This document shows positions 6,101 to 59,924 of a stretch of 61,470 bases of DNA, piece by piece (position 1 is the first letter of the stretch; each line of letters opens with the position of its first letter). Origin of the DNA: an uncultured Acidobacteriota bacterium (lineage in GTDB: Bacteria; Acidobacteriota; Polarisedimenticolia; Polarisedimenticolales; DASRJG01); the NCBI GenBank assembly GCA_964628935.1, contig CAZVOE010000004.1, positions 1 to 61,470 of the forward strand. Direction: 5' to 3'. The position numbers and the translations under genes are program-made. The notes beneath the pieces are model-generated. The model was not told the origin of the DNA. It searched no databases and saw only the letters and a program-made list of their open reading frames with translations.

Positions 6101-7863
6101 GGAGTTTCGAGGACGATCAGGCGGGCGCCCATCTCGGGGAGGCGGTCGGAACCGCAGGCGACCTCAACGGGGATGGGTACGCCGACATCGTTGTCGGCGC
6201 TCCGGATCGCGACGCTCAGTACGTCGACCACGGACGCGTGCTCGTCTTCCACGGTTCGGCTTCTGGACTCCCTGCGAGCCCGGTCTGGAGCGTGGACGGG
6301 GCCAGCGCGAGGAACTTGGGAGAGTCGGTCGGGACCGCAGGAGACGTCAACGGGGACGGATACGCGGAGCTAATCGTCGGTGCTCCGGCATTGACCGGGG
6401 CCGATCGCGGCCACGCCTACCTTCACTACGGGAACGGTGGTCCAGGTCTCGCGCTGCTCCCGCGTCAGCTTCGCGACGATCTCGCGACACCCATCGCCCC
6501 GCTCGGCGAGTCCGACCGAACCGACGGCTTCCGCCTCTCTCTGATCGGCCGTTCCCCCTTCGGGCGTGGAAAGATCGGGGTCGACTGGGAGGTGAAGACT
6601 CTCGGAGTTCTCTTCGACGGGGAGGGGCTCGAGAGCGTGCCCCCCGAGCACGACACGGGCACCGACGGTAGGACGCTCGAGGGGGTGCTCTCGGGCCTCG
6701 CGGCGGGACGGCCGTTTCATTGGCGCGCGCGGCTCGTGCACGATCCCGTCACCTACCCGTTCCAGCGTCGCGGCCGCTGGATCGCGATGCCGTGGAACGG
6801 TTGGCAAGAAGCCGACCTTCGCACCGACTCGCAGGCCGATCTTTCGGTCTCGCAAACCGACTCCCCCGATCCACAGTTCGAGGGGCAGCCGGTCGACTAC
6901 ACCGTCGCCGTGTCGAATGAGGGACCCGCTGCAGCGACGGCAACCCTGACCGACACTTTTCCCGAGGGCTCCACGTTCGTCTCTGCGTCGCCCGCTCAAG
7001 GAACGTGTTCTCACACCTCGGGGATCGTGACCTGCGATCTCGGCGAGATCGGCGTCGGAGCGACGGCAGAGGTTGTCATCCAGGTCTCGGCGCCCGACGG
7101 ATGGGGGACCGCGACCAACGTCGCGACGGTGGCCGTCGGGGCTCCCGCGACGGATCCAGAAGCGTCGAACGACACTTCCTCCGAATCCACCCAGATCCGA
7201 GCCCTGAACATCGGGGACCGCGTCTGGCGCGACCTGGACCGCGACGGCGTGCAGGACGAGGGAGAACCGGGGCTCGCGGGGGTCGTCGTCCTGCTCTACG
7301 ACGGTGCGGGCGGGCTGCTCGATGCCGTTGCCACGAACCACAACGGCTACTACACCTTCTTCGAGGGACTTTCCTACGGAACGCTGTACAACCTCCGCTT
7401 CGACCTTCCCGTCGGCTTCGACTTCTCGCCTCGGGATCAGGGAGCCGACGACTCGCTCGACAGCGACGCGGATCCTGTGACCGGCGACACGGCGATCTTC
7501 TCCCTGACCGAGTTCACCGACGCGACCGGATGGGACGCCGGCATGCACGACTGCTGGGCTCCGGACGAGGCGGTCTGGCTCTACGAGGTCGGCGTGACGA
7601 ACGATGGGAACGACTACCCGGTCCTGAACTTCCAGGACCCCAACCAGCCCGATCAGGTGACCGGCTACAACATCTACCGGTCCGACGACGCGGGCCTGCC
7701 TCCGGCCGAATGGCCCCTCGTCGCCTCGGACGTCGTCGACATGGACGAGGCGACGCCGAACAAGCAGTGGGTCGACACGTCGGGCGACGTGCCGCCTTCG
7801 GGAATCTGGTACTACCAGGTCACCGCCGCCAACCATCGCTGCCCGGCCGAGGGGCCGCGCTGA
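3133..7863 (+). CDS. giant secreted FG-GAP (integrin-alpha-like) repeat protein with C-terminal DUF11-like, SdrD-B-like and Fn3-like domains
   Basis: Signal-peptide-like start [25 protein letters not shown]. Fourteen units each contain (A/G)GD(V/L)N(G/A)(D/G)G(F/Y)(A/S/G)D(V/I)(V/I)VGAP. Then [20 protein letters not shown] (DUF11-like), [25 protein letters not shown] (SdrD B-like) and GYNIYRS...YYQVTAA (Fn3-like). Confidence 0.9.
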
Positions 7864-37629: not shown

Positions 37630-40600
37630 TCAGGGTCCCTCGTTGCCGCACGAGTCGGCGGCGCGCACCACATAAAAGCGCGGGTTGAGGTTCCCCAGGT
37701 CGTCGCGGTCCTCGAACACCGTCTCCGACGTTTCCCCGATTCTCACCCACGACCCAGACGGTGCGCTGGCCCGGTAGATTCGGTAGGACGAGGCTCCGGC
37801 GGACGGGTCCCAGGTCAACCGGACGTGCGCGTCGTTGACGTTGTCGAGACGGACCGTCGACCCGAGCGGCGCAGGGGGCGCCTGGGAGGTCTCGTCGCGG
37901 GCCGAACGCCGGACGAGGTTGTCGTCGGTGACGCCACCGTTGTGCGGACCGGTCGAGCACGTCTCGTCGTTCTCCGCCCGGACGACGTAGTGGAGGGTGA
38001 CGTCGTTCGGGGCGCCGGAGTCGACCCAGCCGGTTCCCGTCAATCCCGCGGCAATGCGGTTCGCGGGTCCCGGCACGAACGCAGGGTCCGACGAGCGGTA
38101 GACCGCGTAGCTCCCGCCGCTTCCCGTTCCCCACGCGGGGGCGGGCGCCCAGGCGAGTGCGACCCCTCCGTCGGCGCAGCCGTCCGCGTCGCTCGCGGAG
38201 AGGAGACCTGCGAAAGACGGCGCTCCCGTACAGGCCCCGCACGCCGCGTAATCCGGCTCCGAGGCGCTCTTCAGGATCAAGCGGTCGACGTTCCACGACG
38301 AGCCGTGGGAGGTCGTTCCCGGCCCGGCGTTCAGCCGGAAGGCGATCTGCAGTTGGCCGTTCGCGTCGGCGTGCTGGGAGATGTCGATCGTCTGGAGCGA
38401 CCAGGCGGAATCCGCGACGCCGGGGATGCTGGGGCTCGTCCAGACTCCCTGCCAGACACCTCCCTTTCGCACCTCGACGTACGCGATCCCGGGGGGCGAG
38501 ACGTTGAGCCATCTCCGGAACTTCAACTGTCCTCCGGAGAGGGTCGAGGCGTCGATCACCGGACTGATGGCGCGGAGGCTCGTCCCCGGTTCGTAGTCCC
38601 CCGGATAGGCGCCGAGACCGGTGAGGTCCTGACCGAGGACTTTCGTTCCTTCGAACGCCCCACTCGGGTCGCCGGGCGTTCCGAGACCTTGCGGGGCGCC
38701 GATTTGCCAGTCGCCCTCGAGCGTCCACCCCGCGGCCGCTTCGAACGTCTCCCGGTACATACCGGGGATTCGCCATGCGTTCAACTGGAAGGGGTTCCCC
38801 GCCGCGTCGGCGCTCGCCGTGTTTCCGTGCGTGTCGGCGGAGGTGACCCGGAAGTGGATCCTGCCGCACTCGAGCATCGGCCCGATCGTGAGGGCGTGAC
38901 TCGTCTTGAGGACGGCGTCGGAGACGGTACTGCCGAGACCCGCGGTCGTTCCCCAATCGACACGCGAGGTCGCCGGTTCCGAAGTGGTCCAGCGAATGGT
39001 CGCCTTGTCGTCCTGAATGTCGGTGACGCGGACGTCGGAAATCGCCGGTCCGCCGCAATCGACATCCGCGGTCTCGAAGGAAGTCGCGGGCATGCCTCGA
39101 CCGTTGTCTTCGTCGTGGTAGGTGGCCGTGATCAGGTCGCCGTGGGCGACCTGTACGACGCCGTCCCCGCCGCCGGCGGGGGTCGATCCGGTCGGGACGC
39201 TTCCCGTGAACTGCGAGGTGTTGGGCCCGGTCTCGACCAGGATCGACGTCTCGGGGGAGGGTTCGGACGAGGACGAGACGTTCACCGCGACGGTGTCCGC
39301 CGCGGTCGGGTCCGTGTTCAGGTCGAGGTCGACGACCTTCACCTGGAGGCCGTCGGCGCAGGAGACGACCGTCTTCGGAAGGGACAGGAGTCCCGCGTGG
39401 CAGGGCTGGAGCCCTTCTCCGAAATCCCCCCACGTTTCGAACGAGTGATACTGACCGCCGTTCGTGTCCTCCGATACGTTCCCCGGCGCGTCGGCGCTCT
39501 CGACGCTGAACCAGTAGACCGTGCACGCGCGCAGACCGGTCAGGTTGACCGCGTGATCGGTCACGAGCCCGCCGGCGCCCGCGGTTAGATCCCGGGGCGG
39601 GCCCTCCCCCCCCCGAACCACCCAGCTCGAAACCTCGTCGGTGTTCCACCGAACGGTCGCGCGGACGTCGGTCACCGAATCGGTTCCGACACCGGAGATG
39701 ACCGGACCCTGGCAGTCGGCCGCAGCCGTGTCGGTCTTCGGAACGTTCGATCCGCCCTGGCCGTCGTCCGCGTCGAGGTAGCGGACCGTGATCGTGTCGG
39801 AGTGCGCGACCTGGACCTTCCCGTCGGACGCGACCGGGCCGCCGTCGGTCCGGACGGTTCCCTTGAACACGCCCGACGTCGCGGAGGTTTCCGTGAGCGT
39901 CACCGTCTCCGGAGCGCTCTCACGATTCGAGAACGCCTCGATCGCGACCGTCCCCGCGCCGCGGAGGTCGGCGTCGGTCAGGGTCACGCCGAGGGTTCCC
40001 GAGCAGGACGCCGAGGCCTCCTGGATCCGGATTCTGCCGTCGGGCGTGGCGGTGTTCGACACGGCCTCGTAGGCGTCGACGCGCCCCATGCCGTACGCGT
40101 TGTCGATGCCGGGGGCGCCGAGGTCGATCGCCGTGTCCATCAGGATCTGTTTGAGGTCGTCGTGGGTGAGCCCCGGGCTCGAAGAGACCATGAGCGCGAC
40201 CGTTCCCGCCACGTGCGGCGTCGCCATCGAGGTGCCGCTCTTGAACGAGTAGCCCGAGCAGACGTTGTGGCTCTTGGTGTCGACTCCCGGCGCCGAGACG
40301 TCCGGCTTGATCAAGCCGGGCGGGTACGGGTGGTCGTTCCAAGGCGGGACGTCCTCCCAGGTGACCGGCCCACGGGACGAAAAGCCCGCGATCTGGTCGC
40401 TGCAGTCGGTCGCTCCCACCGTGATCACGCGCGGGACGTCGCCGGGGGTGCGGACGTTGTCGGGCTCGTTCCCCGAACCCTCGTTCCCCGCCGCGATCAC
40501 CATCGCGGTCCCCGCCTCGATCGTGTTCTCGGCGTTCTGCCGCCAGGTGGCGCGGTCCGGGTTCTGGTCGTGCGGCCAGCCGAGGCTCATGGAGATCGCG

Positions 40601-41604
40601 TCGGCGCCGTTGTCTGCCGCGTACTGCATCGCGTTCCAGACATCGACCTCGTCGGCGAAAGTCACCCCGACCTTGACCGCCATGATCTTCGCGTCGGGGG
40701 CCATGCCGGCCTGTGTCCCCGCCGTGCCGTCCCCCGCGACCGTGCCGGCGCAGTGGGAGCCGTGCGAGTTGTCGTCGTTCGGGACGTTGTCGCCGTTGTC
40801 GAAGTCCCACCCGATCAAGTCGTCGACGAAGCCGTTGACGTCGTCGTCGATCCCGTTCATGTCGTCGGGGTCCATCACGGCGCCGTCCGCGTCGAGATCC
40901 TCGCCGGGGTTGACCCACATCTGGTTCGCGATGTCGGTGTGGGTGTGGCAGACCCCGGTGTCGATCACCGCGACGACCGCTCCCTCGCCGGTGACGCCGA
41001 GCTCGTTCCAGACCTCGGGCGCGCGCATCACGCCCACGCCGCACTCGATCTCGGCGATCGCGTCTCGCGGCGCCGGGTCGACGAAGAGCCGCGGGGCCGG
41101 CGGGGGAGCGAGGTCTTCCCGTTCGCTCCGGTCGCCGAGGAGGACGTCGACCTTCGGGTTATGGTTGATCCAGGCAACCTCCGGGCGTGCGGCGAGTTCG
41201 CGGATCACGGCCGGAGTGGCGTCGACGCCGATGACGTTTCCGATCCAAAGAGGGCGGATGCGTGCGACCTCGCCGGTCCGCTCGAGCTGCCCGAGACGCG
41301 CGAGGATCGCGGCTTGTGTCCGCGCGGCATGCGCGCGCAGCAGATCGCAAACCACACGCCGTCCTTCGCTTCGCCCGAGCCCCTGTCTCGCGATCCGAAG
41401 CCGTTCCACGGGAACGCGGTCCGACAGCACGATGCTCACCGGGACGAGCCGGTCGTCCGGGGACTCCGCGAGGACCTCCTCGAGCGGAGGACGGAGCCGC
41501 GGTGAGACGGGGTCGTCCCCCGCGTGACCGGGCAGGAAGGGGACCGCCAAGAGTCCGATCGCGACGAGGAGCGTCCGGAACGGGAACGGTCGAGAGGCGC
41601 CCAT
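37630..41604 (-). CDS. 1324-aa secreted S8 subtilisin-like peptidase with propeptide, internally duplicated Ig-like+Fn3-like modules, a MAM/LamG-like jelly-roll and two terminal Fn3-like domains
   Basis: Signal peptide. VVAVIDTGV (Asp), NSHGSHCAGTVAG (His), SGTSMATPHVAGTVALM (Ser). VRWNTDEVSS and IRWTTSEPATSRVDWG (PAP-N/Fn3-like). ETFEAAAGWTLEGDWQIGAP (jelly-roll). SYRIYRAS...FYVVRAADSCGNEGP at the C-terminus. Confidence 0.9.
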   Translation of the reverse strand: MGASRPFPFRTLLVAIGLLAVPFLPGHAGDDPVSPRLRPPLEEVLAESPDDRLVPVSIVLSDRVPVERLRIARQGLGRSEGRRVVCDLLRAHAARTQAAILARLGQLERTGEVARIRPLWIGNVIGVDATPAVIRELAARPEVAWINHNPKVDVLLGDRSEREDLAPPPAPRLFVDPAPRDAIAEIECGVGVMRAPEVWNELGVTGEGAVVAVIDTGVCHTHTDIANQMWVNPGEDLDADGAVMDPDDMNGIDDDVNGFVDDLIGWDFDNGDNVPNDDNSHGSHCAGTVAGDGTAGTQAGMAPDAKIMAVKVGVTFADEVDVWNAMQYAADNGADAISMSLGWPHDQNPDRATWRQNAENTIEAGTAMVIAAGNEGSGNEPDNVRTPGDVPRVITVGATDCSDQIAGFSSRGPVTWEDVPPWNDHPYPPGLIKPDVSAPGVDTKSHNVCSGYSFKSGTSMATPHVAGTVALMVSSSPGLTHDDLKQILMDTAIDLGAPGIDNAYGMGRVDAYEAVSNTATPDGRIRIQEASASCSGTLGVTLTDADLRGAGTVAIEAFSNRESAPETVTLTETSATSGVFKGTVRTDGGPVASDGKVQVAHSDTITVRYLDADDGQGGSNVPKTDTAAADCQGPVISGVGTDSVTDVRATVRWNTDEVSSWVVRGGEGPPRDLTAGAGGLVTDHAVNLTGLRACTVYWFSVESADAPGNVSEDTNGGQYHSFETWGDFGEGLQPCHAGLLSLPKTVVSCADGLQVKVVDLDLNTDPTAADTVAVNVSSSSEPSPETSILVETGPNTSQFTGSVPTGSTPAGGGDGVVQVAHGDLITATYHDEDNGRGMPATSFETADVDCGGPAISDVRVTDIQDDKATIRWTTSEPATSRVDWGTTAGLGSTVSDAVLKTSHALTIGPMLECGRIHFRVTSADTHGNTASADAAGNPFQLNAWRIPGMYRETFEAAAGWTLEGDWQIGAPQGLGTPGDPSGAFEGTKVLGQDLTGLGAYPGDYEPGTSLRAISPVIDASTLSGGQLKFRRWLNVSPPGIAYVEVRKGGVWQGVWTSPSIPGVADSAWSLQTIDISQHADANGQLQIAFRLNAGPGTTSHGSSWNVDRLILKSASEPDYAACGACTGAPSFAGLLSASDADGCADGGVALAWAPAPAWGTGSGGSYAVYRSSDPAFVPGPANRIAAGLTGTGWVDSGAPNDVTLHYVVRAENDETCSTGPHNGGVTDDNLVRRSARDETSQAPPAPLGSTVRLDNVNDAHVRLTWDPSAGASSYRIYRASAPSGSWVRIGETSETVFEDRDDLGNLNPRFYVVRAADSCGNEGP

Positions 41605-43999: not shown

Positions 44000-44090
44000 G
44001 GGACCCCCTCCTCGGTCGAAAGCCGTTCAGTCTAGCGCATCTCGGCCCCGGATCGGGGATAATCCCCCCGTCCGCACGCACGGAGCGACC

Positions 44091-45476
44091 ATGTGCCCAG
44101 CCTCCGAAGAGAAGCGCCGGCGCTCGCGCTGGATCGCGCGCGCTCTCGAGTGGAACGACCCGCGCGCCAAGTACCCGAACCTCTGGCGCGACGGCATGCC
44201 GGTGCACCTACTCGAGTACGACACCGTCGCCTGCCGTCTACGGATCGGGGACCTCGTCGCGATTTTCTCCCCCGGTTCGGCGAGGCACCCCGACCGGGTC
44301 GACCGCTACATCGGGATCTCGAGAGTGATCGGCTTGAGGCGCGCCCACGAGGCCGGCCTCTACTGGGTCGATCTCGAGACCGCCCACCGTTTTCGCGAGC
44401 CGGTCGATCTCGGGAAAGCGCCGCGGCGCGTGTTCCTCTCCGCCGACCCCGACTGGCAGGGACCGGAGGCCGCCTGGTTCCGCGAGCTCCTCGAGCGCGC
44501 CGCCGCCGAGGGGTACGAGGTTCGTCCCGAAGAGACCGAGGAGGGGGCGGCGCCTTGGCGTCCGTCCGAGAACGCGTCCGACGACGGAGGCGAGACGACC
44601 CCTGCGCACAGGGCGGCGCTTCCGGAGAAACCGTCCCCGCCTCCCGCCCCGGTTCGACGCGGAGGCGACCTGTTCGCGGGGGTGGATTACAGCGGCGACA
44701 TGAGGGATCCGAAGGAGGCCACCTGGCTCGCCGTCGTCGAGAGGGTCGGGGACCGGCTCACCGTGGTTCGGCTCCAGCCGACCGGACGGCACCGCCTCGA
44801 GGCGCTGCTTCGGGATCCGGACGCCGACCTGCAGCGGGTGGAAGCGATCGGGTTCGATTTCCCCTTCGGGCTTCCGATCCCGTTCGCCGAGAGCGTCCTG
44901 GGAGGTCCGTTTCCCGAGGAGGGGTGGTGGGCGCTCGCGAAGCGATTCGGGACGATGACGCGGCCCGAATACTTGACCCTCCTGCACGAATTCCGAGACC
45001 GCGAGGGGGAGCCGAAGCGCTTCACGGACGAACGGACCGGAGCGTTCTCCCCGCTCCACCGCGTGAACCCCGACCTCGGACCGATGACCTTCCACGGCGT
45101 TCGCATGATCGCCGCCGATCGCTCGCGGTACGCGATCCGCCCGTTCGAGCGCGCCAAGGGACGCCGCCTTCTCGAGGTGTACCCGGGGGCGACGACGCGA
45201 TCGCTCGAACTCGCGGAAGGGGGCGAGGGCGGCGGGCGCCTCGCGGCGATCCTCGCAGCGCTCGAGCGCCTCGAGGAGCATCCCCTCGACTTCCCCGCGG
45301 GGATCCGAGAACGGGCGCTGTCGCGCCGCGACGCGCTCGATGCCGTCATCGCGGCACGCTCGGCGGCGGTCGCGGTTCTGACGGGCGAGGCCGACCGGGA
45401 GGTCGAGCATCTCGCCGCCGGCGAATCCGGCCGCGTCCGGCTGGAGGGCTGGATCTACGGGGCGCCGGAGCCCTGA
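44091..45476 (+). CDS. two-domain protein: N-terminal PUA-like (EVE/ASCH-type pattern, tentative) + acidic/Pro linker + C-terminal DUF429 (predicted RNase-H-fold nuclease)
   Basis: N-terminus: RIGDLVAIFSPGS...RYIGISRVIG...LYWVDLETAHRFREPVDL. C-terminus: LFAGVDYSGD, AIGFDFPFGLP, LLEVYPGATT, RRDALDAVIAARSAA (DUF429-like landmarks, from memory). Confidence 0.65.
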   Translation: MCPASEEKRRRSRWIARALEWNDPRAKYPNLWRDGMPVHLLEYDTVACRLRIGDLVAIFSPGSARHPDRVDRYIGISRVIGLRRAHEAGLYWVDLETAHRFREPVDLGKAPRRVFLSADPDWQGPEAAWFRELLERAAAEGYEVRPEETEEGAAPWRPSENASDDGGETTPAHRAALPEKPSPPPAPVRRGGDLFAGVDYSGDMRDPKEATWLAVVERVGDRLTVVRLQPTGRHRLEALLRDPDADLQRVEAIGFDFPFGLPIPFAESVLGGPFPEEGWWALAKRFGTMTRPEYLTLLHEFRDREGEPKRFTDERTGAFSPLHRVNPDLGPMTFHGVRMIAADRSRYAIRPFERAKGRRLLEVYPGATTRSLELAEGGEGGGRLAAILAALERLEEHPLDFPAGIRERALSRRDALDAVIAARSAAVAVLTGEADREVEHLAAGESGRVRLEGWIYGAPEP

Positions 45477-46309
45477 TGCTCGGCAACAGCTTCGTGCACA
45501 TCCCGGGGATCGGCGCGAAGCGCGAGAGCGATCTCTGGCGCCGGGGATTCCACGATTGGGACCGCTTCCGCAGGGAGTACCCCAACGGAGCGTGGCGCGA
45601 TCTCGTGCTCCCTTGGCTCGATCGGGAGATCGCGGCGCGCGCCCTCCCGCGGCGGGAGGCCTGGCGCCTCGCGCCGGAGTTTCCCGGCCGGACGGCTTTC
45701 CTCGACATCGAGACGGAGGGACTCGGCGAGGCCGACGGCGTCACCTGCATCGGGCTTTCGGACGGCGAGAGCGTCGAGACCTTCGTCGCGGGGGAGAGCC
45801 TGACGCTCTTCCCGCACGCGCTCGAGCGTTTCGATCTCCTCGTGACCTACAACGGCTCCTGCTTCGATCTCCCCGTCCTCGCCCGTGCGTTTCCGCAGCT
45901 CGATTTTCGGAGGTTCCACCACGTCGACCTACGCTTCGCGCTGCATCGCCTGGGGGTCAAGGGAGGCCTCAAGGGGGCCGAACGCGCGCTCGGAATCGCA
46001 CGCTCGGGCGAGATCGAAGGGGTGGACGGCTTCCTCGCGGTCCTCCTCTGGAGGGAGCACCGCCGGGGACACCCGACCGCGCTCGAGACGCTCCTCCGGT
46101 ATTGCCTGGAGGACGTCGTTCACCTGAAGCCCCTCCTCGCGATCGCCTACAACCGACTCGCCGGAGAACTCCCGGTCGAGGTGCCGCGACTCGATGCGGG
46201 CAGGGAACCGGCGATCCCGTTCGAGGCGGATGGCGACCTCGTGAAACGGTTGCTCGGACGATCGGCGCCGGAGACGCGCGCGACGAGGTGGGCCGACCTC
46301 GATCAGTGA
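45476..46309 (+). CDS. HhH motif + YprB-type RNase-H-like (DEDD-like 3'-5' exonuclease fold, RNase_H_2/PF13482-like) protein
   Basis: FVHIPGIGAKRESDLWRRGF (HhH-like), AFLDIETEGL, LLVTYNGSCFDLPVL, HHVDLRF, YCLEDVVHL. The ATG shares one nt with the upstream TGA (TGATG). Confidence 0.75.
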   Translation: MLGNSFVHIPGIGAKRESDLWRRGFHDWDRFRREYPNGAWRDLVLPWLDREIAARALPRREAWRLAPEFPGRTAFLDIETEGLGEADGVTCIGLSDGESVETFVAGESLTLFPHALERFDLLVTYNGSCFDLPVLARAFPQLDFRRFHHVDLRFALHRLGVKGGLKGAERALGIARSGEIEGVDGFLAVLLWREHRRGHPTALETLLRYCLEDVVHLKPLLAIAYNRLAGELPVEVPRLDAGREPAIPFEADGDLVKRLLGRSAPETRATRWADLDQ

Positions 46310-49448: not shown

Positions 49449-49973
49449 CTACGCGATACCGGCTGCCGAGAGGCGGCGGAGGACATCCCCGACCATCGCG
49501 TCCCGCGAGGCGCGCGACATCCGCACGAGCTCGATCCGGGGGTCCTGGCGCACCCGCTTCGGGAACCCGACCCCGTGGACCGCGACCGTGCCGAGGACGG
49601 GAACGGGGGAGGCGAGCAGGACCTCGACCGCTTCGCGGAAGGCGGTCGAGAACGACTCCATCTTCCCGACCTCGTCGAGAACGACGAGACGGGTCGCCGG
49701 GGACGGGCGGAGGGCGTCGAGGCCGACGCGTTCGAGGCCTTCGAGGACGACGCCGTACGGCCCGACCCTCGCGACCCCTTTTTCGCGCACGTGAGCGAGG
49801 AGGAAGTCCCGCCCGTCGAGAGTGACGCCACGGAATCCGGTGCGCACCCTGCCGTCGCGCAGTTCCTCCGTCCAAAACCCGGTCATCACGACGTTCGGCG
49901 CGAGGCGCTCCACAACGCGACGGACGAGGGTCGTCTTGCCGCAGCCCGGATCGCCGGTGATGAACAATTTCAA
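49449..49973 (-). CDS. THEP1-type nucleoside-triphosphatase; TTG start
   Basis: Walker A FITGDPGCGKTT, Walker B LVVLDEVGKME. TTGA overlap with the upstream gene's stop. Confidence 0.8.
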   Translation of the reverse strand: MKLFITGDPGCGKTTLVRRVVERLAPNVVMTGFWTEELRDGRVRTGFRGVTLDGRDFLLAHVREKGVARVGPYGVVLEGLERVGLDALRPSPATRLVVLDEVGKMESFSTAFREAVEVLLASPVPVLGTVAVHGVGFPKRVRQDPRIELVRMSRASRDAMVGDVLRRLSAAGIA

Positions 49974-50329
49974 GAGGCGGTCAGCGTGATCGAGTCGCCC
50001 GAGACGGCGACCGGGTACTCGACGAGCGGTTTCGTGACCGGACCCTGGAAGGGCTGCCCGTCGGCGTCGAACCAGCCCCCCTGGCACGGGCACTTGTATC
50101 GCTTCAGGTCCTCCTGCCACGCCACGACGCATCCCTCGTGGGTGCACAGGAGCGACCGAGCGATGAATCGGTCCTGAGTTCGTTGAATCTCGACGGGGAT
50201 GTCCCCCAGCGCGACGACCTTCCGCGCGCCGATCGGAAGCTCCGCGAGGGGGACCGTCGCGGCGATCGGACCCTTCGCTCCGCCGCATCCGACGAGCGCG
50301 CCGAGCTCGAGGAGAACTCCTCCGGCCAA
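49970..50329 (-). CDS. Rieske-like [2Fe-2S] domain lipoprotein with atypical second ligand box (CPCQ); start uncertain, possibly degenerate
   Basis: CTHEGC...YKCPCQGGWFDADGQPFQGP. Lipobox LVGCGG. An RRRSVLRLVAG Tat-like motif lies upstream in frame, but no ATG/GTG/TTG/CTG lies between it and the tRNA. The first canonical start is TTG at 50329. Confidence 0.55.
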   Translation of the reverse strand: MAGGVLLELGALVGCGGAKGPIAATVPLAELPIGARKVVALGDIPVEIQRTQDRFIARSLLCTHEGCVVAWQEDLKRYKCPCQGGWFDADGQPFQGPVTKPLVEYPVAVSGDSITLTAS

Positions 50330-50397
50330 CCCGCCGGCGACGAGCCGGAGGACGCTGCGCCGGCGCTGGCAGAACGAAAGGTCCTCGGCCGAGACGG

Positions 50398-50470
50398 CAG
50401 GGGAGACAGGAATCGAACCTGCAACCCCCGGTTTTGGAGACCGGTGCTCTGCCAATTGAGCTACTCCCCT
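50398..50470 (-). tRNA. trnW: tRNA-Trp (anticodon CCA), 3' CCA not encoded
   Basis: Reverse complement AGGGGAGTAGCTCAATTGGCAGAGCACCGGTCTCCAAAACCGGGGGTTGCAGGTTCGATTCCTGTCTCCCCTG folds as a cloverleaf. The acceptor arms AGGGGAG/CTCCCCT pair; the anticodon loop is CTCCAAA. Confidence 0.9.
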
Positions 50471-50531
50471 GTGTCCCGTCCCTGCTCCGGGGGGCGGAGC
50501 CCGCGAAGTGTACAACCCGCCCCGGGGGGGA

Positions 50532-51170
50532 TCAACCGGACCGGCGCTTCCAGGAAGCCCGATTCCTTCCGCGTCCCTCGACGAGGTACTTCGCCTCGAA
50601 GTTCGTGAGCGGCAGAGTCGGGTCCCCGGGAAACCCCTCCCCGCCGAACTCCGGGAGGCGTTCAAAGGCGGGGTGCGCGTCGACCAGAGGCTCGATCACC
50701 GCCCAGTAGTCCGCGTGATCGGTCGCGACGTGGAGCCGGCCGCCCGCGGCGAGGAGGCGCGCCACCCCGTCGAGCGTCGCCGGCTGGAAGAAGCGACGCT
50801 TGTGGTGGCGCTTCTTCGGCCAGGGATCCGGGTAGAAAACGTAGAGGGCGCGCACGGACGCGGGACGGAACGCCCGCGCGACCAGCTCGCGCGCGTCGAC
50901 CCGGACGAAGCGGACGTTCTCGAGGCCGCGCTTCGCCGCCCGCGTTTCGGCGATCCGGAGGAACTCGTTCGCCCACTCGACCCCGAGATGGTTGACGTCG
51001 GGGCGCGCCTCGGCGGCGGCGAGGAGGAATCGTCCCTTCCCGATCCCGATCTCGACCTCGACCGGATGGTCGTTTCCGAAGATCGTCTTCCAGTCGAGTC
51101 CAGCGAGCGAACGCTCCGGATCGAGGCGCAAGGGGTGATCCAGTCCGACGTGGGCGCGCATCCCTCCCAT
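50532..51170 (-). CDS. trmB: tRNA (guanine46-N7)-methyltransferase
   Basis: VEIGIGKGRFLL, LGVEW, YVFYPDPWPKKRHHKRR, TNFEAKY. Confidence 0.9.
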   Translation of the reverse strand: MGGMRAHVGLDHPLRLDPERSLAGLDWKTIFGNDHPVEVEIGIGKGRFLLAAAEARPDVNHLGVEWANEFLRIAETRAAKRGLENVRFVRVDARELVARAFRPASVRALYVFYPDPWPKKRHHKRRFFQPATLDGVARLLAAGGRLHVATDHADYWAVIEPLVDAHPAFERLPEFGGEGFPGDPTLPLTNFEAKYLVEGRGRNRASWKRRSG

Positions 51171-59669: not shown

Positions 59670-59697
59670 GCGAACCTCCCGTTCGAGGGCTGGAAGA

Positions 59698-59865
59698 CGT
59701 TCGCCCGGCAGGTCTCCTGGCTTCCGGATCGTCCGCTCGAGGGCTCCTTCCCGGACGCGCAACCCCGATCTCCTCGGGATCCCTCGCGCCCAGTGGATTC
59801 GTGCCCTCGGCGTCCCCGGTGACAGTGGCGGGGGCCGCGCGGGATTCTCACCCGCTTCCCTTGGC
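59698..59865 (-). promoter_or_regulatory. cobalamin (B12) riboswitch in the leader of the TonB-dependent receptor gene
   Basis: The minus-strand read contains GGGAAGCGGGTGAGAATCCCGCGCGGCCCCCGCCACTGTCACCGGGGA (B12 box GCCACTG), GAATCCACTGGG and AGCCAGGAGACCTGCC. P1-like pairing of CTTCGTTCGGC with GCCGGGCGAACG. Confidence 0.85.
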
Positions 59866-59924
59866 CGAACGAAGGTGACAAAGAACGAAAACCGAACGGA
59901 CGGTAGCGGGAGGGGCGGGAGGTG

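What the first reader, a model, noticed from the sequence alone, without database searches (positions are those of the whole stretch)
44091..46309. Two-gene module of predicted RNase-H-fold nucleases: PUA-like+DUF429 followed by HhH+YprB-type exonuclease
Gene 1 joins an N-terminal beta-barrel-like segment to a DUF429-type domain through an acidic/Pro linker. The N-terminal segment has the GDLVAIF...YIGISRVIG...VDLE...PVDL pattern of PUA-like readers (EVE/ASCH). The DUF429-type domain has GVDYSGD, FDFPFGLP, EVYPGA and DALDAVIAA. Gene 2, whose ATG shares a base with gene 1's TGA, has an HhH motif plus a DEDD-like YprB/RNase_H_2 core (DIETEGL, TYNGSCFD, HVDL, EDVVHL). PUA-like EVE domains are known to read modified bases and to be fused to nucleases in modification-dependent restriction and other conflict systems. 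A reader + endonuclease-like + exonuclease pair is therefore a plausible uncharacterised nucleic-acid surveillance, defence or repair module. Flanking genes (thiolase, Fur) are unrelated housekeeping genes.
Basis: inference. Interest (0 to 1): 0.65.

Follow-up and report, generated by a model that had tools for sequence, protein, structure and literature searches.

The report
Reader-nuclease gene beside an exonuclease gene
Two real, overlapping genes in an uncultured acidobacterium encode a new fusion of a PUA-like (EVE/ASCH-type) domain to an uncharacterised DUF429 nuclease and a separate 3'-5' exonuclease. They are an old, vertically inherited chromosomal pair, each of which can be lost on its own, so they look more like an optional repair or processing pair than a phage-defence system.

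Summary
Gene 1 (44091-45476, 461 aa) is a conserved N-terminal beta-barrel, a disordered acidic/Pro linker and a DUF429 domain (PF04250, E 3e-7). Gene 2 (45476-46309, 277 aa) has an HhH-like motif and a PF13482 exonuclease core (E 1e-28) with invariant DEDD-Y residues. Its ATG shares the A of gene 1's TGA.

The N-domain models confidently (pLDDT 92). Nearly all its named structural matches are PUA-like proteins (EVE, ASCH, YTH, Lon-N), but weakly (best E 7e-4, TM 0.39-0.46), and no Pfam family is reached.

Gene 1 occurs only in Polarisedimenticolia-type Acidobacteriota, in a conserved housekeeping neighbourhood. Gene 2 follows it in 8 of 15 informative loci. A whole clade has gene 2 alone, and gene 2's wider family never has a DUF429 neighbour (0 of 73). 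Trees suggest an ancestral pair with separate losses. There are no PADLOC hits, no defence or mobile neighbours and no composition shift. Eight of 35 orthologues lack predicted catalytic aspartates.

The best reading is a lineage-specific, non-essential reader-directed endonuclease co-transcribed with a general exonuclease, probably for DNA repair or processing. Defence and RNA-directed roles are not excluded. The architecture is new, but all functions are inferred.

The parts
44091..45476 (+). Gene 1 (461 aa plus stop): PUA-like N-domain, disordered linker, DUF429 RNase-H-like nuclease domain.
   Evidence: The ORF is. It has 196 homologues, and all 120 listed are 48-90% identical over 57-100% of the query (116 of them over at least 93%). 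The AF2 full-length model has pLDDT 90.4 and shows two domains.
44091..44525 (+). N-terminal domain (aa 1-145): a beta-barrel with a C-terminal helix, PUA-like (EVE/ASCH-like) fold. Residues conserved in at least 90% of orthologues include E20 W21 Y28 P29 N30 W32 P37 R49 R51 D54 P61 R69 G75 R78 W92 P111 R113 D119 W122 F130.
   Evidence: Conservation is. The AF2 model has pLDDT 91.9. Foldseek PDB top hits are PUA-like proteins (E 7e-4 to 0.3, TM 0.3-0.46). A profile match to TTHA0113 has E 0.5. Three of 32 orthologues give sub-threshold EVE hits. The window sequence has no Pfam hit.
44526..44666 (+). Acidic/Pro-rich flexible linker (aa ~146-192), variable in length and sequence among orthologues.
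   Evidence: Alignment gaps and length variation are. pLDDT is 46-70 in the full-length model.
44667..45473 (+). DUF429 domain (aa ~193-461), predicted RNase-H-like nuclease. Candidate metal-binding acidic residues are D199, D256, D313, E362, D414/D417 and E452.
   Evidence: Pfam PF04250 gives E 3e-7. These residues are conserved in 88 stand-alone DUF429 relatives. Structural matches are only weak, to terminase nuclease and integrase folds. D199 and/or D256 are replaced in 8 of 35 orthologues.
45467..45470 (+). GGAG Shine-Dalgarno-like motif inside the end of gene 1, 5 nt before the gene 2 ATG. With the TGATG overlap it suggests translational coupling.
   Evidence: Read directly from the sequence. 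Coupling is an inference.
45476..46309 (+). Gene 2 (277 aa plus stop): N-terminal HhH-like segment plus a DEDD-Y 3'-5' exonuclease core (PF13482, related to PolB-exo and MrfB).
   Evidence: There are 1057 homologues. The closest solved relative by sequence is MrfB 8un9 (E 0.035). PHROG DNA-polymerase exonuclease families match at E 3e-7 and 4e-6.
45476..45685 (+). Gene 2 N-terminal segment (aa 1-70) with an invariant H8-x-P10-G11-x-G13-xxx-E17-xx-L20-W21 helix-hairpin-helix-like motif.
   Evidence: The alignment is. There is a weak hit to Cdd1 PF11731 (E 0.089). No structural test was made.
45695..46141 (+). Gene 2 exonuclease core (aa 74-222). Invariant residues are D77, E79 (DIET), D131 (YNGxxFD), H149/D151 (HxDL), and Y209 and D213 (YCLEDV).
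   Evidence: Pfam RNase_H_2 gives E 1.2e-28. Invariant columns are from 35 orthologues.

Best explanation
**What the two genes are.** They are real chromosomal genes of a Polarisedimenticolia-type acidobacterium.
- Gene 1 is a lineage-specific fusion. A divergent PUA-like (EVE/ASCH-like) beta-barrel is tethered by a 40-100 aa disordered acidic/Pro linker to a DUF429 domain. DUF429 is an RNase-H-like nuclease of the RuvC/terminase clade.
- Gene 2 is a member of a much more widespread family of ~270-aa proteins with an HhH-like motif and a DEDD-Y 3'-5' exonuclease core.

**History.** The pair was probably present in the ancestor of this lineage, in a fixed slot between a thiolase gene and a multihaem-cytochrome/TPR gene. 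It has been inherited vertically, with gene 1 lost in one clade and gene 2 lost in several others.

**Most likely mechanism (inferred).** The PUA-like domain recognises a modified or damaged base, or an unusual nucleic-acid end. The tethered DUF429 domain then nicks nearby. The co-translated HhH exonuclease can extend the nick 3'-5'. This would be a non-essential DNA repair or processing function, not a mobile defence system.

**Shown versus inferred.** Shown: gene structure, domain identities, conserved residues, distribution and synteny. Inferred: the substrate, the nicking, the cooperation between the two proteins and the biological role.
For: **Domains.** DUF429 and PF13482 are both above the Pfam cut-offs. 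The N-domain model is confident and its named structural neighbours are almost all PUA-like. The putative catalytic residues of gene 1 are intact in the window and are shared with 88 stand-alone DUF429 proteins. The DEDD-Y residues of gene 2 are invariant.

**Vertical, housekeeping context.**
- All 20 gene-1 loci among GTDB species representatives come from Acidobacteriota or unclassified MAGs.
- The thiolase, gene 1, gene 2, cytochrome/TPR synteny is conserved. Identities track each other: L006 gives 68/55/60/50% and L001 gives 93/86/88/90%.
- The wider block holds NTPase_1, TrmB-type methyltransferase, FolC-like, PMT_2 and AccD genes.
- There are no PADLOC hits and no GC anomaly.

**Linkage of the pair.**
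- Wherever both genes are present, gene 2 is immediately downstream on the same strand, in 8 of 8 loci with gaps of 2-193 nt.
- In L117 the pair has a 4-bp overlap even though both immediate flanks have been replaced.
- In L115 a DUF429-only version (45% identical, no N-domain) is also followed by gene 2.
- NJ trees place paired loci on several deep branches and gene-2-only loci in one clade.

**DNA-repair precedents.** MrfB, the closest solved relative of gene 2, is a Mg-dependent 3'-5' DNA exonuclease that repairs mitomycin C adducts (PMC11194089). A stand-alone DUF429 subgroup occupies the imuA position upstream of imuB-like and dnaE2-like genes in three contigs. Majorek et al. 2014 (PMC3985635) place DUF429 with the RuvC, YqgF and terminase nucleases and note that its context is conserved and not mobile.
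Against: - No experiment exists on any DUF429 protein. A whole-word search of the held open-access and bioRxiv library found 7 papers naming DUF429, PF04250 or its COGs. The only one read, Majorek 2014, is computational, and none was seen to report an experiment on a DUF429 protein.
- Nothing distinguishes DNA from RNA as the substrate. Characterised ASCH proteins act on RNA or nucleosides: the YqfB ac4C amidohydrolase (PMC6972931) and the ZmASCH RNase (PMC5615036).
- Each gene occurs without the other, so cooperation is not required.
- The slot upstream of gene 2 also holds an aquaporin-like gene whose stop overlaps the gene 2 start (L033). Gene 2 itself overlaps the cytochrome gene in gene-2-only loci. 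Overlaps are therefore common in these genomes and are weak evidence of function.
- 8 of 35 orthologues have lost D199 and/or D256, so nuclease activity may not be the conserved function.
- No LexA-type or other conserved operator was found upstream.
- The PUA-like assignment rests on TM-scores below 0.5.
Confidence: 0.45

Rival explanations
1. Defence reading. Gene 1 would be a type IV-like, modification-dependent nuclease: a PUA-like reader senses modified phage DNA and the DUF429 domain cuts it. Gene 2 would degrade the cut DNA. Together they would form a small anti-phage or anti-plasmid system.
For: The structural hits include THYN1 EVE bound to 5mC DNA and DISARM DrmA. Gene 1 is present or absent among related genomes at a fixed locus. 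The loss of catalytic residues in some orthologues is reminiscent of decaying accessory genes.
Against: Neither protein hits PADLOC. The 20 kb around the genes holds no defence, integrase or transposase genes. Synteny is conserved across a class-level lineage, and identities parallel those of housekeeping flanks. Gene 1 is confined to one lineage, not patchily spread by horizontal transfer. GC content matches the surroundings. Gene 2's family is a widespread single gene in housekeeping contexts.
Confidence: 0.12
2. RNA-directed reading. The ASCH/EVE-like domain would read a modified nucleoside in tRNA or rRNA (for example ac4C or m6A), and the DUF429 domain would cleave that RNA or an RNA:DNA hybrid. 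DUF429 is related to YqgF/RuvX, a pre-rRNA processing nuclease. Gene 1 would then act in RNA maturation or quality control, and gene 2 would be an unrelated or only loosely linked exonuclease.
For: Characterised ASCH proteins act on RNA or ac4C nucleosides (PMC6972931, PMC5615036, bioRxiv 10.64898/2026.02.27.708502). PUA/ASCH domains are mostly linked to the translation apparatus (PMC7641849). DUF429 clusters with YqgF/RuvX in the Majorek classification. The neighbourhood contains a TrmB-type tRNA methyltransferase gene within about 5 kb in related loci.
Against: No tRNA or rRNA gene and no RNA-modification enzyme is directly linked to gene 1. The only recurrent partner of gene 1 is a DNA-polymerase-type exonuclease with an HhH-like motif; taking that motif as a duplex-DNA binder rests on general knowledge of HhH motifs, not on a result here. 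A related DUF429 subgroup sits in an imuB-dnaE2 DNA-damage cassette.
Confidence: 0.2
3. No partnership. The two genes are functionally independent and are neighbours only because both sit in an old, tightly packed chromosomal slot. The 1-base overlap would reflect genome compaction, not co-function.
For: Gene 2 alone occupies the slot in a whole clade, where it overlaps the cytochrome/TPR gene by 10 bp. In L033 an aquaporin-like gene overlaps the gene 2 start. Gene 1 occurs alone in 7 of 15 informative loci. Gene 2's wider family has no DUF429 neighbour in 0 of 73 loci and no conserved neighbour. Of the distinct stand-alone DUF429 proteins outside this slot that were looked up on contigs with neighbouring genes, none of 6 (P0267, P0316, P0272, P0280, P0274, P0276) has a PF13482 neighbour; P0264 lies on a 1.6-kb contig with no other gene called.
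Against: The pair stays together with a 4-bp overlap when both immediate flanks change (L117). A DUF429-only variant at 45% identity is still followed directly by gene 2 (L115). When both genes are present, the order, strand and tight spacing are kept in 8 of 8 loci across deep branches.
Confidence: 0.25

Closest known systems
DUF429 (PF04250; COG2410/COG4328/COG4923), predicted RNase-H-like nucleases (Majorek et al. 2014, PMC3985635)
   Same: The C-terminal 270 aa of gene 1 match the family model above its cut-off. They share its conserved GxDxSG, DFPFxxP, ExxPG, DxLDA and EGWIY motifs with 88 stand-alone members. As the paper notes for the family, the context is conserved among close relatives and is not mobile.
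   Different: The paper says most members are single-domain proteins, with rare NUDIX or RelA/SpoT fusions. It does not describe a fusion to a PUA-like N-domain through a long disordered linker, and no other paper in the library mentions one. That architecture was found only in this acidobacterial lineage. No family member has an experimentally shown activity.
MrfB/YprB of Bacillus subtilis (PF13482, COG3359; PDB 8UN9; PMC11194089)
   Same: Gene 2 has the same Pfam family and the same order of motifs (DxE, YNGxxFD, HxD, final D). MrfB is its closest solved relative by sequence (E 0.035) and is a Mg-dependent 3'-5' DNA exonuclease acting in repair.
   Different: Gene 2 has no C-terminal TPR domain and no adjacent MrfA/YprA helicase. 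Its last motif is Y209-x3-D213 (DEDD-y, as in polymerase proofreading domains), not the H-x4-D of the DEDDh enzyme MrfB. It also carries an N-terminal HhH-like motif. Sequence similarity is marginal.
PUA-like superfamily readers: EVE (PF01878, THYN1, 2gbs), ASCH (3iuw, TTHA0113 2dp9) and YTH
   Same: The predicted N-domain is a small beta-barrel with a flanking helix, and nearly all its named structural neighbours are these proteins. The strand segment W92-V114 aligns with the C-terminal ASCH-like strands of TTHA0113. Many conserved aromatic and basic residues would suit base or nucleic-acid binding; that last point is an inference.
   Different: The window sequence reaches no Pfam EVE, ASCH or PUA model. 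TM-scores are only 0.3-0.46 and identity is 8-22%. The conserved residue set (EW...YPNxW...RLRxGD...) matches no described EVE or ASCH signature that I could test. Ligand binding is untested.
Modification-dependent (type IV) restriction enzymes built from a PUA/EVE/SRA reader plus a nuclease (PMC6765204; PMC7641849)
   Same: They follow the same design logic: a PUA-superfamily reader fused to a nuclease in one polypeptide.
   Different: The nuclease fold here is RNase-H-like DUF429, not HNH or PD-(D/E)XK. The gene is vertically inherited in a housekeeping neighbourhood of a single lineage, has no PADLOC hit and is not in a defence island.

Membership tests
DUF429 (PF04250) | Match to the family HMM above the curated gathering score. 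| tested here: met
   30.8 bits against a cut-off of 23, E 3e-7, aa 197-435 covering profile positions 1-206 of 214.
DUF429 (PF04250) | Conserved acidic residues in the first and fourth core strands, the predicted RNase-H-like active site (Majorek 2014). | tested here: met
   In the window protein, D199 (GVDYSG) and D256 (FDFPFG) are present, along with E362, D414/D417 and E452. The same columns are 92-99% conserved in 88 stand-alone relatives. However, 8 of 35 orthologues of this fusion family lack D199 and/or D256.
DUF429 (PF04250) | RNase-H-like three-dimensional fold. | tested here: inconclusive
   The AF2 model is confident (pLDDT above 90 over the domain). Foldseek against the PDB gives only weak matches to RNase-H-like nuclease domains of phage large terminases and to an integrase (E 0.09-0.5). 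A sequence profile search found no solved DUF429 structure.
RNase_H_2 (PF13482), DnaQ-like DEDD 3'-5' exonucleases | Match to the family HMM above the gathering score, and all four DEDD acidic residues present. | tested here: met
   100.6 bits against a cut-off of 22. D77, E79, D131 and D213, plus Y209 and D151, are invariant in 35 orthologues.
RNase_H_2 (PF13482), DnaQ-like DEDD 3'-5' exonucleases | 3'-5' exonuclease activity. | not testable with these tools
   This needs biochemistry. It is inferred from MrfB (PMC11194089) and from polymerase proofreading domains (PHROG hits).
MrfAB (YprA/YprB) mitomycin repair pair | An exonuclease encoded next to, and acting with, an MrfA/YprA DEAD-box helicase. 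| tested here: not met
   No helicase is found within about 6 kb. The neighbours are STAS, thioredoxin-like, thiolase, Fur, cytochrome/TPR, GNAT and NTPase_1 genes.
MrfAB (YprA/YprB) mitomycin repair pair | A DEDDh catalytic motif and a C-terminal TPR domain in the exonuclease. | tested here: not met
   The last motif is Y-x3-D, with R where MrfB has its catalytic H (alignment; invariance). The protein is only 277 aa and has no TPR hit.
EVE (PF01878) / ASCH (PF04266) domain families | Match to the family HMM. | tested here: not met
   The window N-domain has no Pfam hit at E up to 10. Only 3 of 32 orthologues reach sub-threshold EVE hits (best E 0.078). A profile match to the ASCH-like TTHA0113 has E 0.5.
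PUA-like superfamily (fold level) | A small pseudo-barrel of 5-6 strands with a flanking helix, structurally superposable on PUA, ASCH, EVE or YTH domains. | tested here: inconclusive
   The model has pLDDT 91.9. The three best Foldseek PDB hits are MJECL36 (2p5d) and two chains of an ASCH-annotated protein (3iuw), each with probability 1.00. EVE, YTH, Lon-N and ATP-sulfurylase-N domains follow, but the best E is 7e-4 and TM is 0.30-0.46. The BFVD list weakly includes EVE, ASCH and DUF3850 proteins.
PUA-like superfamily (fold level) | Binding of a modified base or of nucleic acid. | not testable with these tools
   This is only inferred, from conserved aromatic residues (W21, Y28, W32, W92, W122) and basic residues (R49, R51, R69, R78, R113).
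Known anti-phage defence systems (PADLOC-DB 2.0) and type IV modification-dependent restriction | Match to a defence-system protein model. | tested here: not met
   Neither protein has a hit at E up to 1.
Known anti-phage defence systems (PADLOC-DB 2.0) and type IV modification-dependent restriction | Location in variable defence islands or mobile elements, and a patchy, horizontally spread distribution. | tested here: not met
   The locus lies in a conserved housekeeping synteny block and the identities of the two genes parallel those of the flanks. Gene 1 is confined to Acidobacteriota-type MAGs. GC content is uniform. Presence or absence is coherent by clade.

The most novel reading that the evidence does not exclude
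Gene 1 would found a new class of enzyme, in which a PUA-like base reader steers an RNase-H-fold (DUF429) nuclease to a modified or damaged base. Together with the HhH/DEDD-y exonuclease it would form a previously unknown two-step excision pathway: read, nick, then resect 3'-5'. This would give the first function for the large DUF429 family. The same chemistry could alternatively be used as a new kind of modification-dependent restriction.
Probability: 0.2. Interest if true: 0.6.

Novelty: new variant of a known kind. Interest (0 to 1): 0.35.

Why it matters
- **DUF429 has no known function.** It is a widespread predicted nuclease family, and no experimentally characterised member or solved structure was found here. 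A natural fusion to a PUA-like reader, plus a recurrent exonuclease neighbour, gives concrete and testable hypotheses about its substrate. So does the separate finding of a DUF429 subgroup in the imuA position of imuB-dnaE2 cassettes.
- **If it is wrong, the result is modest.** It would then be a lineage-specific domain fusion of unknown role in uncultured Acidobacteriota, next to a general exonuclease.

Tried and rejected
1. **PADLOC and NCBIfam scans** of both proteins gave nothing useful.
2. **PDB sequence search** with the gene 1 profile gave no hit at E up to 10.
3. **The search of protein representatives** was meant to run on the N-domain only. Because all well-occupied columns become profile positions, it ran on the full-length profile. 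It still showed that, among the best 150 hits, N-domain matches occur only in this family or in fragments of it. More distant N-domain relatives could have been missed.
4. **An N-domain-only profile search** found 30 proteins, all fragments of the same family at 50% identity or more. Three short chimeric calls on contigs under 1 kb carried other Pfam domains, and I set these aside as assembly or gene-call artefacts.
5. **Apparent split of gene 1 in L015** (N-domain and DUF429 in different frames). I judged it most likely an indel error in the low-complexity linker, an assumption I did not check; it was not pursued.
6. **Neighbour clustering around 73 distant gene 2 relatives** found no conserved partner. 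The recurrent clusters were antisense artefacts or housekeeping genes such as archaeosine TGT, adenylosuccinate synthetase and a dCTP-deaminase-like protein.
7. **tblastn of a stand-alone DUF429 protein against plasmids** gave no match.
8. **Promoter and terminator scan** was uninformative. A search for a shared operator or LexA-type box upstream of gene 1 in 12 loci found only a -10-like TAnAnT.
9. **BFVD fold search** gave nothing below E 1e-3.
10. **Rfam and tRNA scans** found no RNA element in or next to the two genes.
11. **Opposite-strand ORFs.** The long minus-strand ORFs overlapping the genes (for example 44238-45410) were treated as high-GC artefacts, because all homology and Pfam support lies on the plus-strand frames.

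Full report
**1. The observation**

The window is uniformly GC-rich (0.65-0.73), with no compositional break at 44-46 kb.

ORF 44091-45476 (+) encodes 461 aa. The DNA around its end reads GAGCCC-TGATG-CTC. The A at 45476 closes the TGA of gene 1 and opens the ATG of gene 2, which runs to 46309 and encodes 277 aa. A GGAG lies 5 nt before that ATG.

Pfam confirms both domain calls: DUF429 PF04250 at aa 197-435 of gene 1 (E 3e-7, above the cut-off) and RNase_H_2 PF13482 at aa 74-222 of gene 2 (E 1.2e-28). Pfam also confirms the flanking genes as thiolase and Fur.

Both proteins have many homologues: 196 for gene 1 and 1057 for gene 2, with dozens of invariant columns. They are therefore real genes, not the chance long ORFs that 70% GC DNA produces on every strand.

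**2. Anatomy of gene 1**

An alignment of orthologues (48-90% identity) shows three parts:
- a strongly conserved N-domain (aa ~10-145), with E20 W21 Y28 P29 N30 W32 P37 R49 R51 D54 P61 R69 G75 R78 W92 P111 R113 D119 W122 F130 conserved in at least 90% of sequences;
- an acidic/Pro-rich linker of very variable length;
- the DUF429 domain.

*Structure models.* AlphaFold2 models the N-domain confidently (pLDDT 91.9, pTM 0.87) as a beta-barrel followed by a helix. The full-length model (pLDDT 90.4) shows two domains joined by a disordered segment at aa 150-190.

*N-domain fold.* Foldseek against the PDB returns mostly PUA-like proteins:
- MJECL36 2p5d (E 6.8e-4);
- ASCH proteins 3iuw and TTHA0113 2dp9;
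- THYN1 EVE 5j3e/3eop and Rpa0253 2gbs;
- YTH domains, Lon N-domains and ATP-sulfurylase N-domains;
- a part of DISARM DrmA.

TM-scores are only 0.30-0.46. Independent sequence signals point the same way. The N-domain profile gives a sub-threshold match (E 0.5) to the C-terminal strands of TTHA0113/1wk2. Three of 32 orthologues give sub-threshold EVE hits (best E 0.078). The window sequence itself reaches no Pfam model. I conclude that the domain is PUA-like at the fold level, somewhere near the EVE/ASCH families, but it is not a demonstrable member of either.

*DUF429 domain.* Its candidate acidic residues (D199, D256, D313, E362, D414/D417, E452) are intact in the window. They are 84-99% conserved in 88 stand-alone DUF429 relatives of 255-335 aa. 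No DUF429 structure has been solved. The model gives only weak matches to the RNase-H-like nuclease domains of phage large terminases and to an integrase. This fits the placement of DUF429 by Majorek et al. 2014 in the RuvC/YqgF/terminase clade.

*An unexpected point.* Eight of 35 sampled orthologues have replaced D199 and/or D256 with G, A or N, while the N-domain and the rest of the protein stay conserved.

**3. Anatomy of gene 2**

D77 and E79 (DIET), D131 (YNGxxFD), H149/D151 (HxDL), and Y209 and D213 (YCLEDV) are invariant in 35 orthologues. So is an N-terminal H-x-P-G-x-G-xxx-E-xx-L-W motif of helix-hairpin-helix type.

The closest solved relative by sequence is the B. subtilis mitomycin-repair exonuclease MrfB (8un9, E 0.035), a Mg-dependent 3'-5' DNA exonuclease (PMC11194089). 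Gene 2 differs from MrfB in four ways:
- it has Y-x3-D where MrfB has H-x4-D, so it is DEDD-y, as in polymerase proofreading domains (PHROG DNA-polymerase exonuclease hits);
- it has no TPR domain;
- it has no MrfA-type helicase neighbour;
- it has the HhH-like N-terminus, which is supported only by the motif and a weak Cdd1 hit (E 0.089).

**4. Distribution and context**

*Where gene 1 occurs.* A scan of one genome per GTDB species found 20 gene-1 loci. All come from Acidobacteriota, Polarisedimenticolaceae, "Terriglobia" or unclassified MAGs, plus Acidobacteria bacterium Mor1. Searching 1.84 billion representative proteins with the full-length profile found the N-domain only in this family or in fragments of it among the best 150 hits. 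The more distant hits were stand-alone DUF429 proteins. An N-domain-only profile search found only fragments of the same family.

*Synteny.* The order thiolase(-), gene 1(+), gene 2(+), multihaem cytochrome/TPR(+) recurs. Identities move in step: 93/86/88/90% in L001 and 68/55/60/50% in L006. The wider block carries NTPase_1, a TrmB-type methyltransferase, FolC-like, PMT_2 and AccD genes.

*What the slot holds.* Its content varies:
- gene 1 plus gene 2: the window, L001, L006, L009 and L011, and also L002, L004, L005 and L007 with altered flanks;
- gene 1 alone: L003 (Mor1), L010, L012, L014, L015, L017 and L018;
- gene 2 alone, with its stop overlapping the cytochrome gene by 10 bp: L021, L024, L026, L028 and L030-L032;
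- a DUF429-only protein (271 aa, 45% identical, no N-domain) plus gene 2: L115;
- an aquaporin-like gene overlapping the gene 2 start: L033.

Gene 2 therefore follows gene 1 in 8 of 15 informative gene-1 loci. When it is present, it is always immediately downstream on the same strand.

*Persistence of the pair.* In L117 the pair keeps a 4-bp overlap even though the thiolase and cytochrome flanks have been replaced.

*Trees.* Neighbour-joining trees of thiolase and of gene 2 put all gene-2-only loci in one clade. Paired loci lie on several deep branches and gene-1-only loci on three branches. The simplest history is an ancestral pair with separate later losses.

*Beyond this lineage.* Gene 2's family continues at 35-48% identity in very diverse metagenomes. 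Some of these loci have archaeal-type neighbours such as archaeosine tRNA-guanine transglycosylase. No DUF429 neighbour was found in 0 of 73 loci, and there is no conserved partner.

*Defence and RNA signals.* Neither protein hits PADLOC. No RNA element lies in or next to the genes.

**5. How it most likely works**

*Shown:* the two genes, their domains, the intact candidate active sites, the overlap with an internal Shine-Dalgarno motif, vertical inheritance in a housekeeping neighbourhood, and the facultative nature of the pairing.

*Inferred:* the PUA-like domain recognises a modified or damaged base or an unusual nucleic-acid feature. The flexibly tethered DUF429 nuclease nicks nearby. The HhH/DEDD-y exonuclease, made from the same transcript, resects 3'-5'.

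*Hints toward DNA.* The MrfB precedent is one. A second is that a stand-alone DUF429 subgroup (P0267 and P0316, 72% identical to each other) sits in the imuA position directly upstream of imuB-like and dnaE2-like genes in three contigs. A third is the polymerase-proofreading type of gene 2.

*Against this.* No DUF429 protein was found to have been studied experimentally in the library searched. Characterised ASCH proteins act on RNA or ac4C nucleosides. Each gene can exist without the other. Gene overlaps are common in these genomes. Some orthologues have lost the predicted catalytic aspartates. No damage-response operator was found upstream.

I put the repair/processing reading at about 0.45. 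The rivals are an RNA-directed role (0.2), a defence or type IV-like role (0.12), and no functional partnership (0.25). The last overlaps the others, because it concerns only the module claim.

**6. Comparison with what is known, and novelty**

Gene 1 is a member of DUF429 by HMM and motifs. Gene 2 is a member of PF13482 and the DEDD exonucleases. Neither is a member of the MrfAB system, because there is no helicase, no TPR domain and no DEDDh motif. Neither matches any PADLOC defence family.

The N-domain is PUA-like by fold only. Reader-plus-nuclease fusions are well known with HNH or PD-(D/E)XK nucleases in type IV restriction (PMC6765204, PMC7641849). A PUA-like reader fused to DUF429 is not mentioned in the DUF429 literature I could find; Majorek lists only NUDIX and RelA/SpoT fusions.

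I therefore class it as a new variant of a known kind. It is of moderate interest: a narrow, uncultured-lineage family, but one that offers a testable handle on the uncharacterised DUF429 nucleases.

Noticed in passing
L109:2889-8439, L110:809-4730, L116:1301-3383: A stand-alone DUF429 subgroup (P0267 of 276 aa and P0316 of 284 aa, 72% identical to each other and ~32% identical to gene 1 aa 195-368) lies in a conserved gene string. The order is a 129-aa unknown protein, the DUF429 protein, an ImuB-like protein (PF00817 IMS plus IMS_C), then a DnaE2-like protein (PHP plus DNA_pol3_alpha). This is the position usually held by imuA in the imuA-imuB-dnaE2 mutagenesis cassette. In L116 the DUF429 stop overlaps the imuB start by 8 bp. 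None of the DUF429 papers I found mentions this.
   Followed up: partly
L115:788-2455: In the same thiolase-to-cytochrome slot there is a DUF429-only protein (P0253, 271 aa, 45% identical to gene 1 aa 195-458). Only 260 bp lie upstream, so it has no N-domain. A gene 2 orthologue (70% identical) follows 13 bp later. The PUA-like N-domain was therefore either gained or lost within this lineage.
   Followed up: partly
L033:3336-4001: In this gene-2-only relative, a 221-aa MIP/aquaporin-like ORF with an NPA motif fills the slot between thiolase and gene 2, and its stop overlaps the gene 2 start. The slot is a variable insertion point, and gene overlaps there do not by themselves imply shared function.
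   Followed up: partly
orthologues P0036, P0096, P0100, P0103, P0114, P0117, P0118, P0119 (alignment A1): Eight of 35 gene 1 orthologues have G, A or N in place of the predicted catalytic D199 and/or D256, while the N-domain and the rest of the DUF429 domain stay conserved. They may be catalytically dead or repurposed members.
   Followed up: partly
window 44058-44063, and the equivalent position in 11 related loci: A -10-like hexamer (GATAAT in the window; TATAAT, TATACT, TAGACT, TACACT and similar in relatives) lies about 25-35 nt upstream of the gene 1 ATG, inside a GGGGATAATCCCC palindrome in the window. No shared operator or LexA-type box was found. The consensus promoter scan reported nothing.
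   Followed up: partly
L015:8001-9486 (also P0390; possibly P0398 and P0255): In L015 the N-domain and the DUF429 part of gene 1 lie in different reading frames, so the N-domain is called as a separate 174-aa protein. Either an indel error in the low-complexity linker (which I assumed, unchecked) or a true gene fission could explain it. A few other N-domain-only gene calls sit on long contigs.
   Followed up: no
L064:3730-5541: A distant gene 2 relative appears fused at its C-terminus to a T5orf172/MUG113 (GIY-YIG-like) domain, within a 604-aa open frame. A separate T5orf172 gene also lies near a stand-alone DUF429 gene in L112.
   Followed up: no
L066:3405-4220 and 6368-7183: Two copies of a gene 2-family exonuclease gene, each about 40% identical to the window protein, lie about 2 kb apart on one metagenomic contig.
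   Followed up: no
window 50396-50470 (-) and 59690-59911 (-): A tRNA-Trp (CCA) gene and a cobalamin riboswitch (RF00174, 101 bits) lie elsewhere in the window. The long ORF 49970-50665 (-) that spans the tRNA is probably spurious.
   Followed up: no
window 37630-41604 (-): A 1324-aa secreted subtilisin-like (S8) protease ORF with many repeated beta-sandwich-like segments lies upstream of the region studied. It is 89% identical to its counterpart in L001.
   Followed up: no
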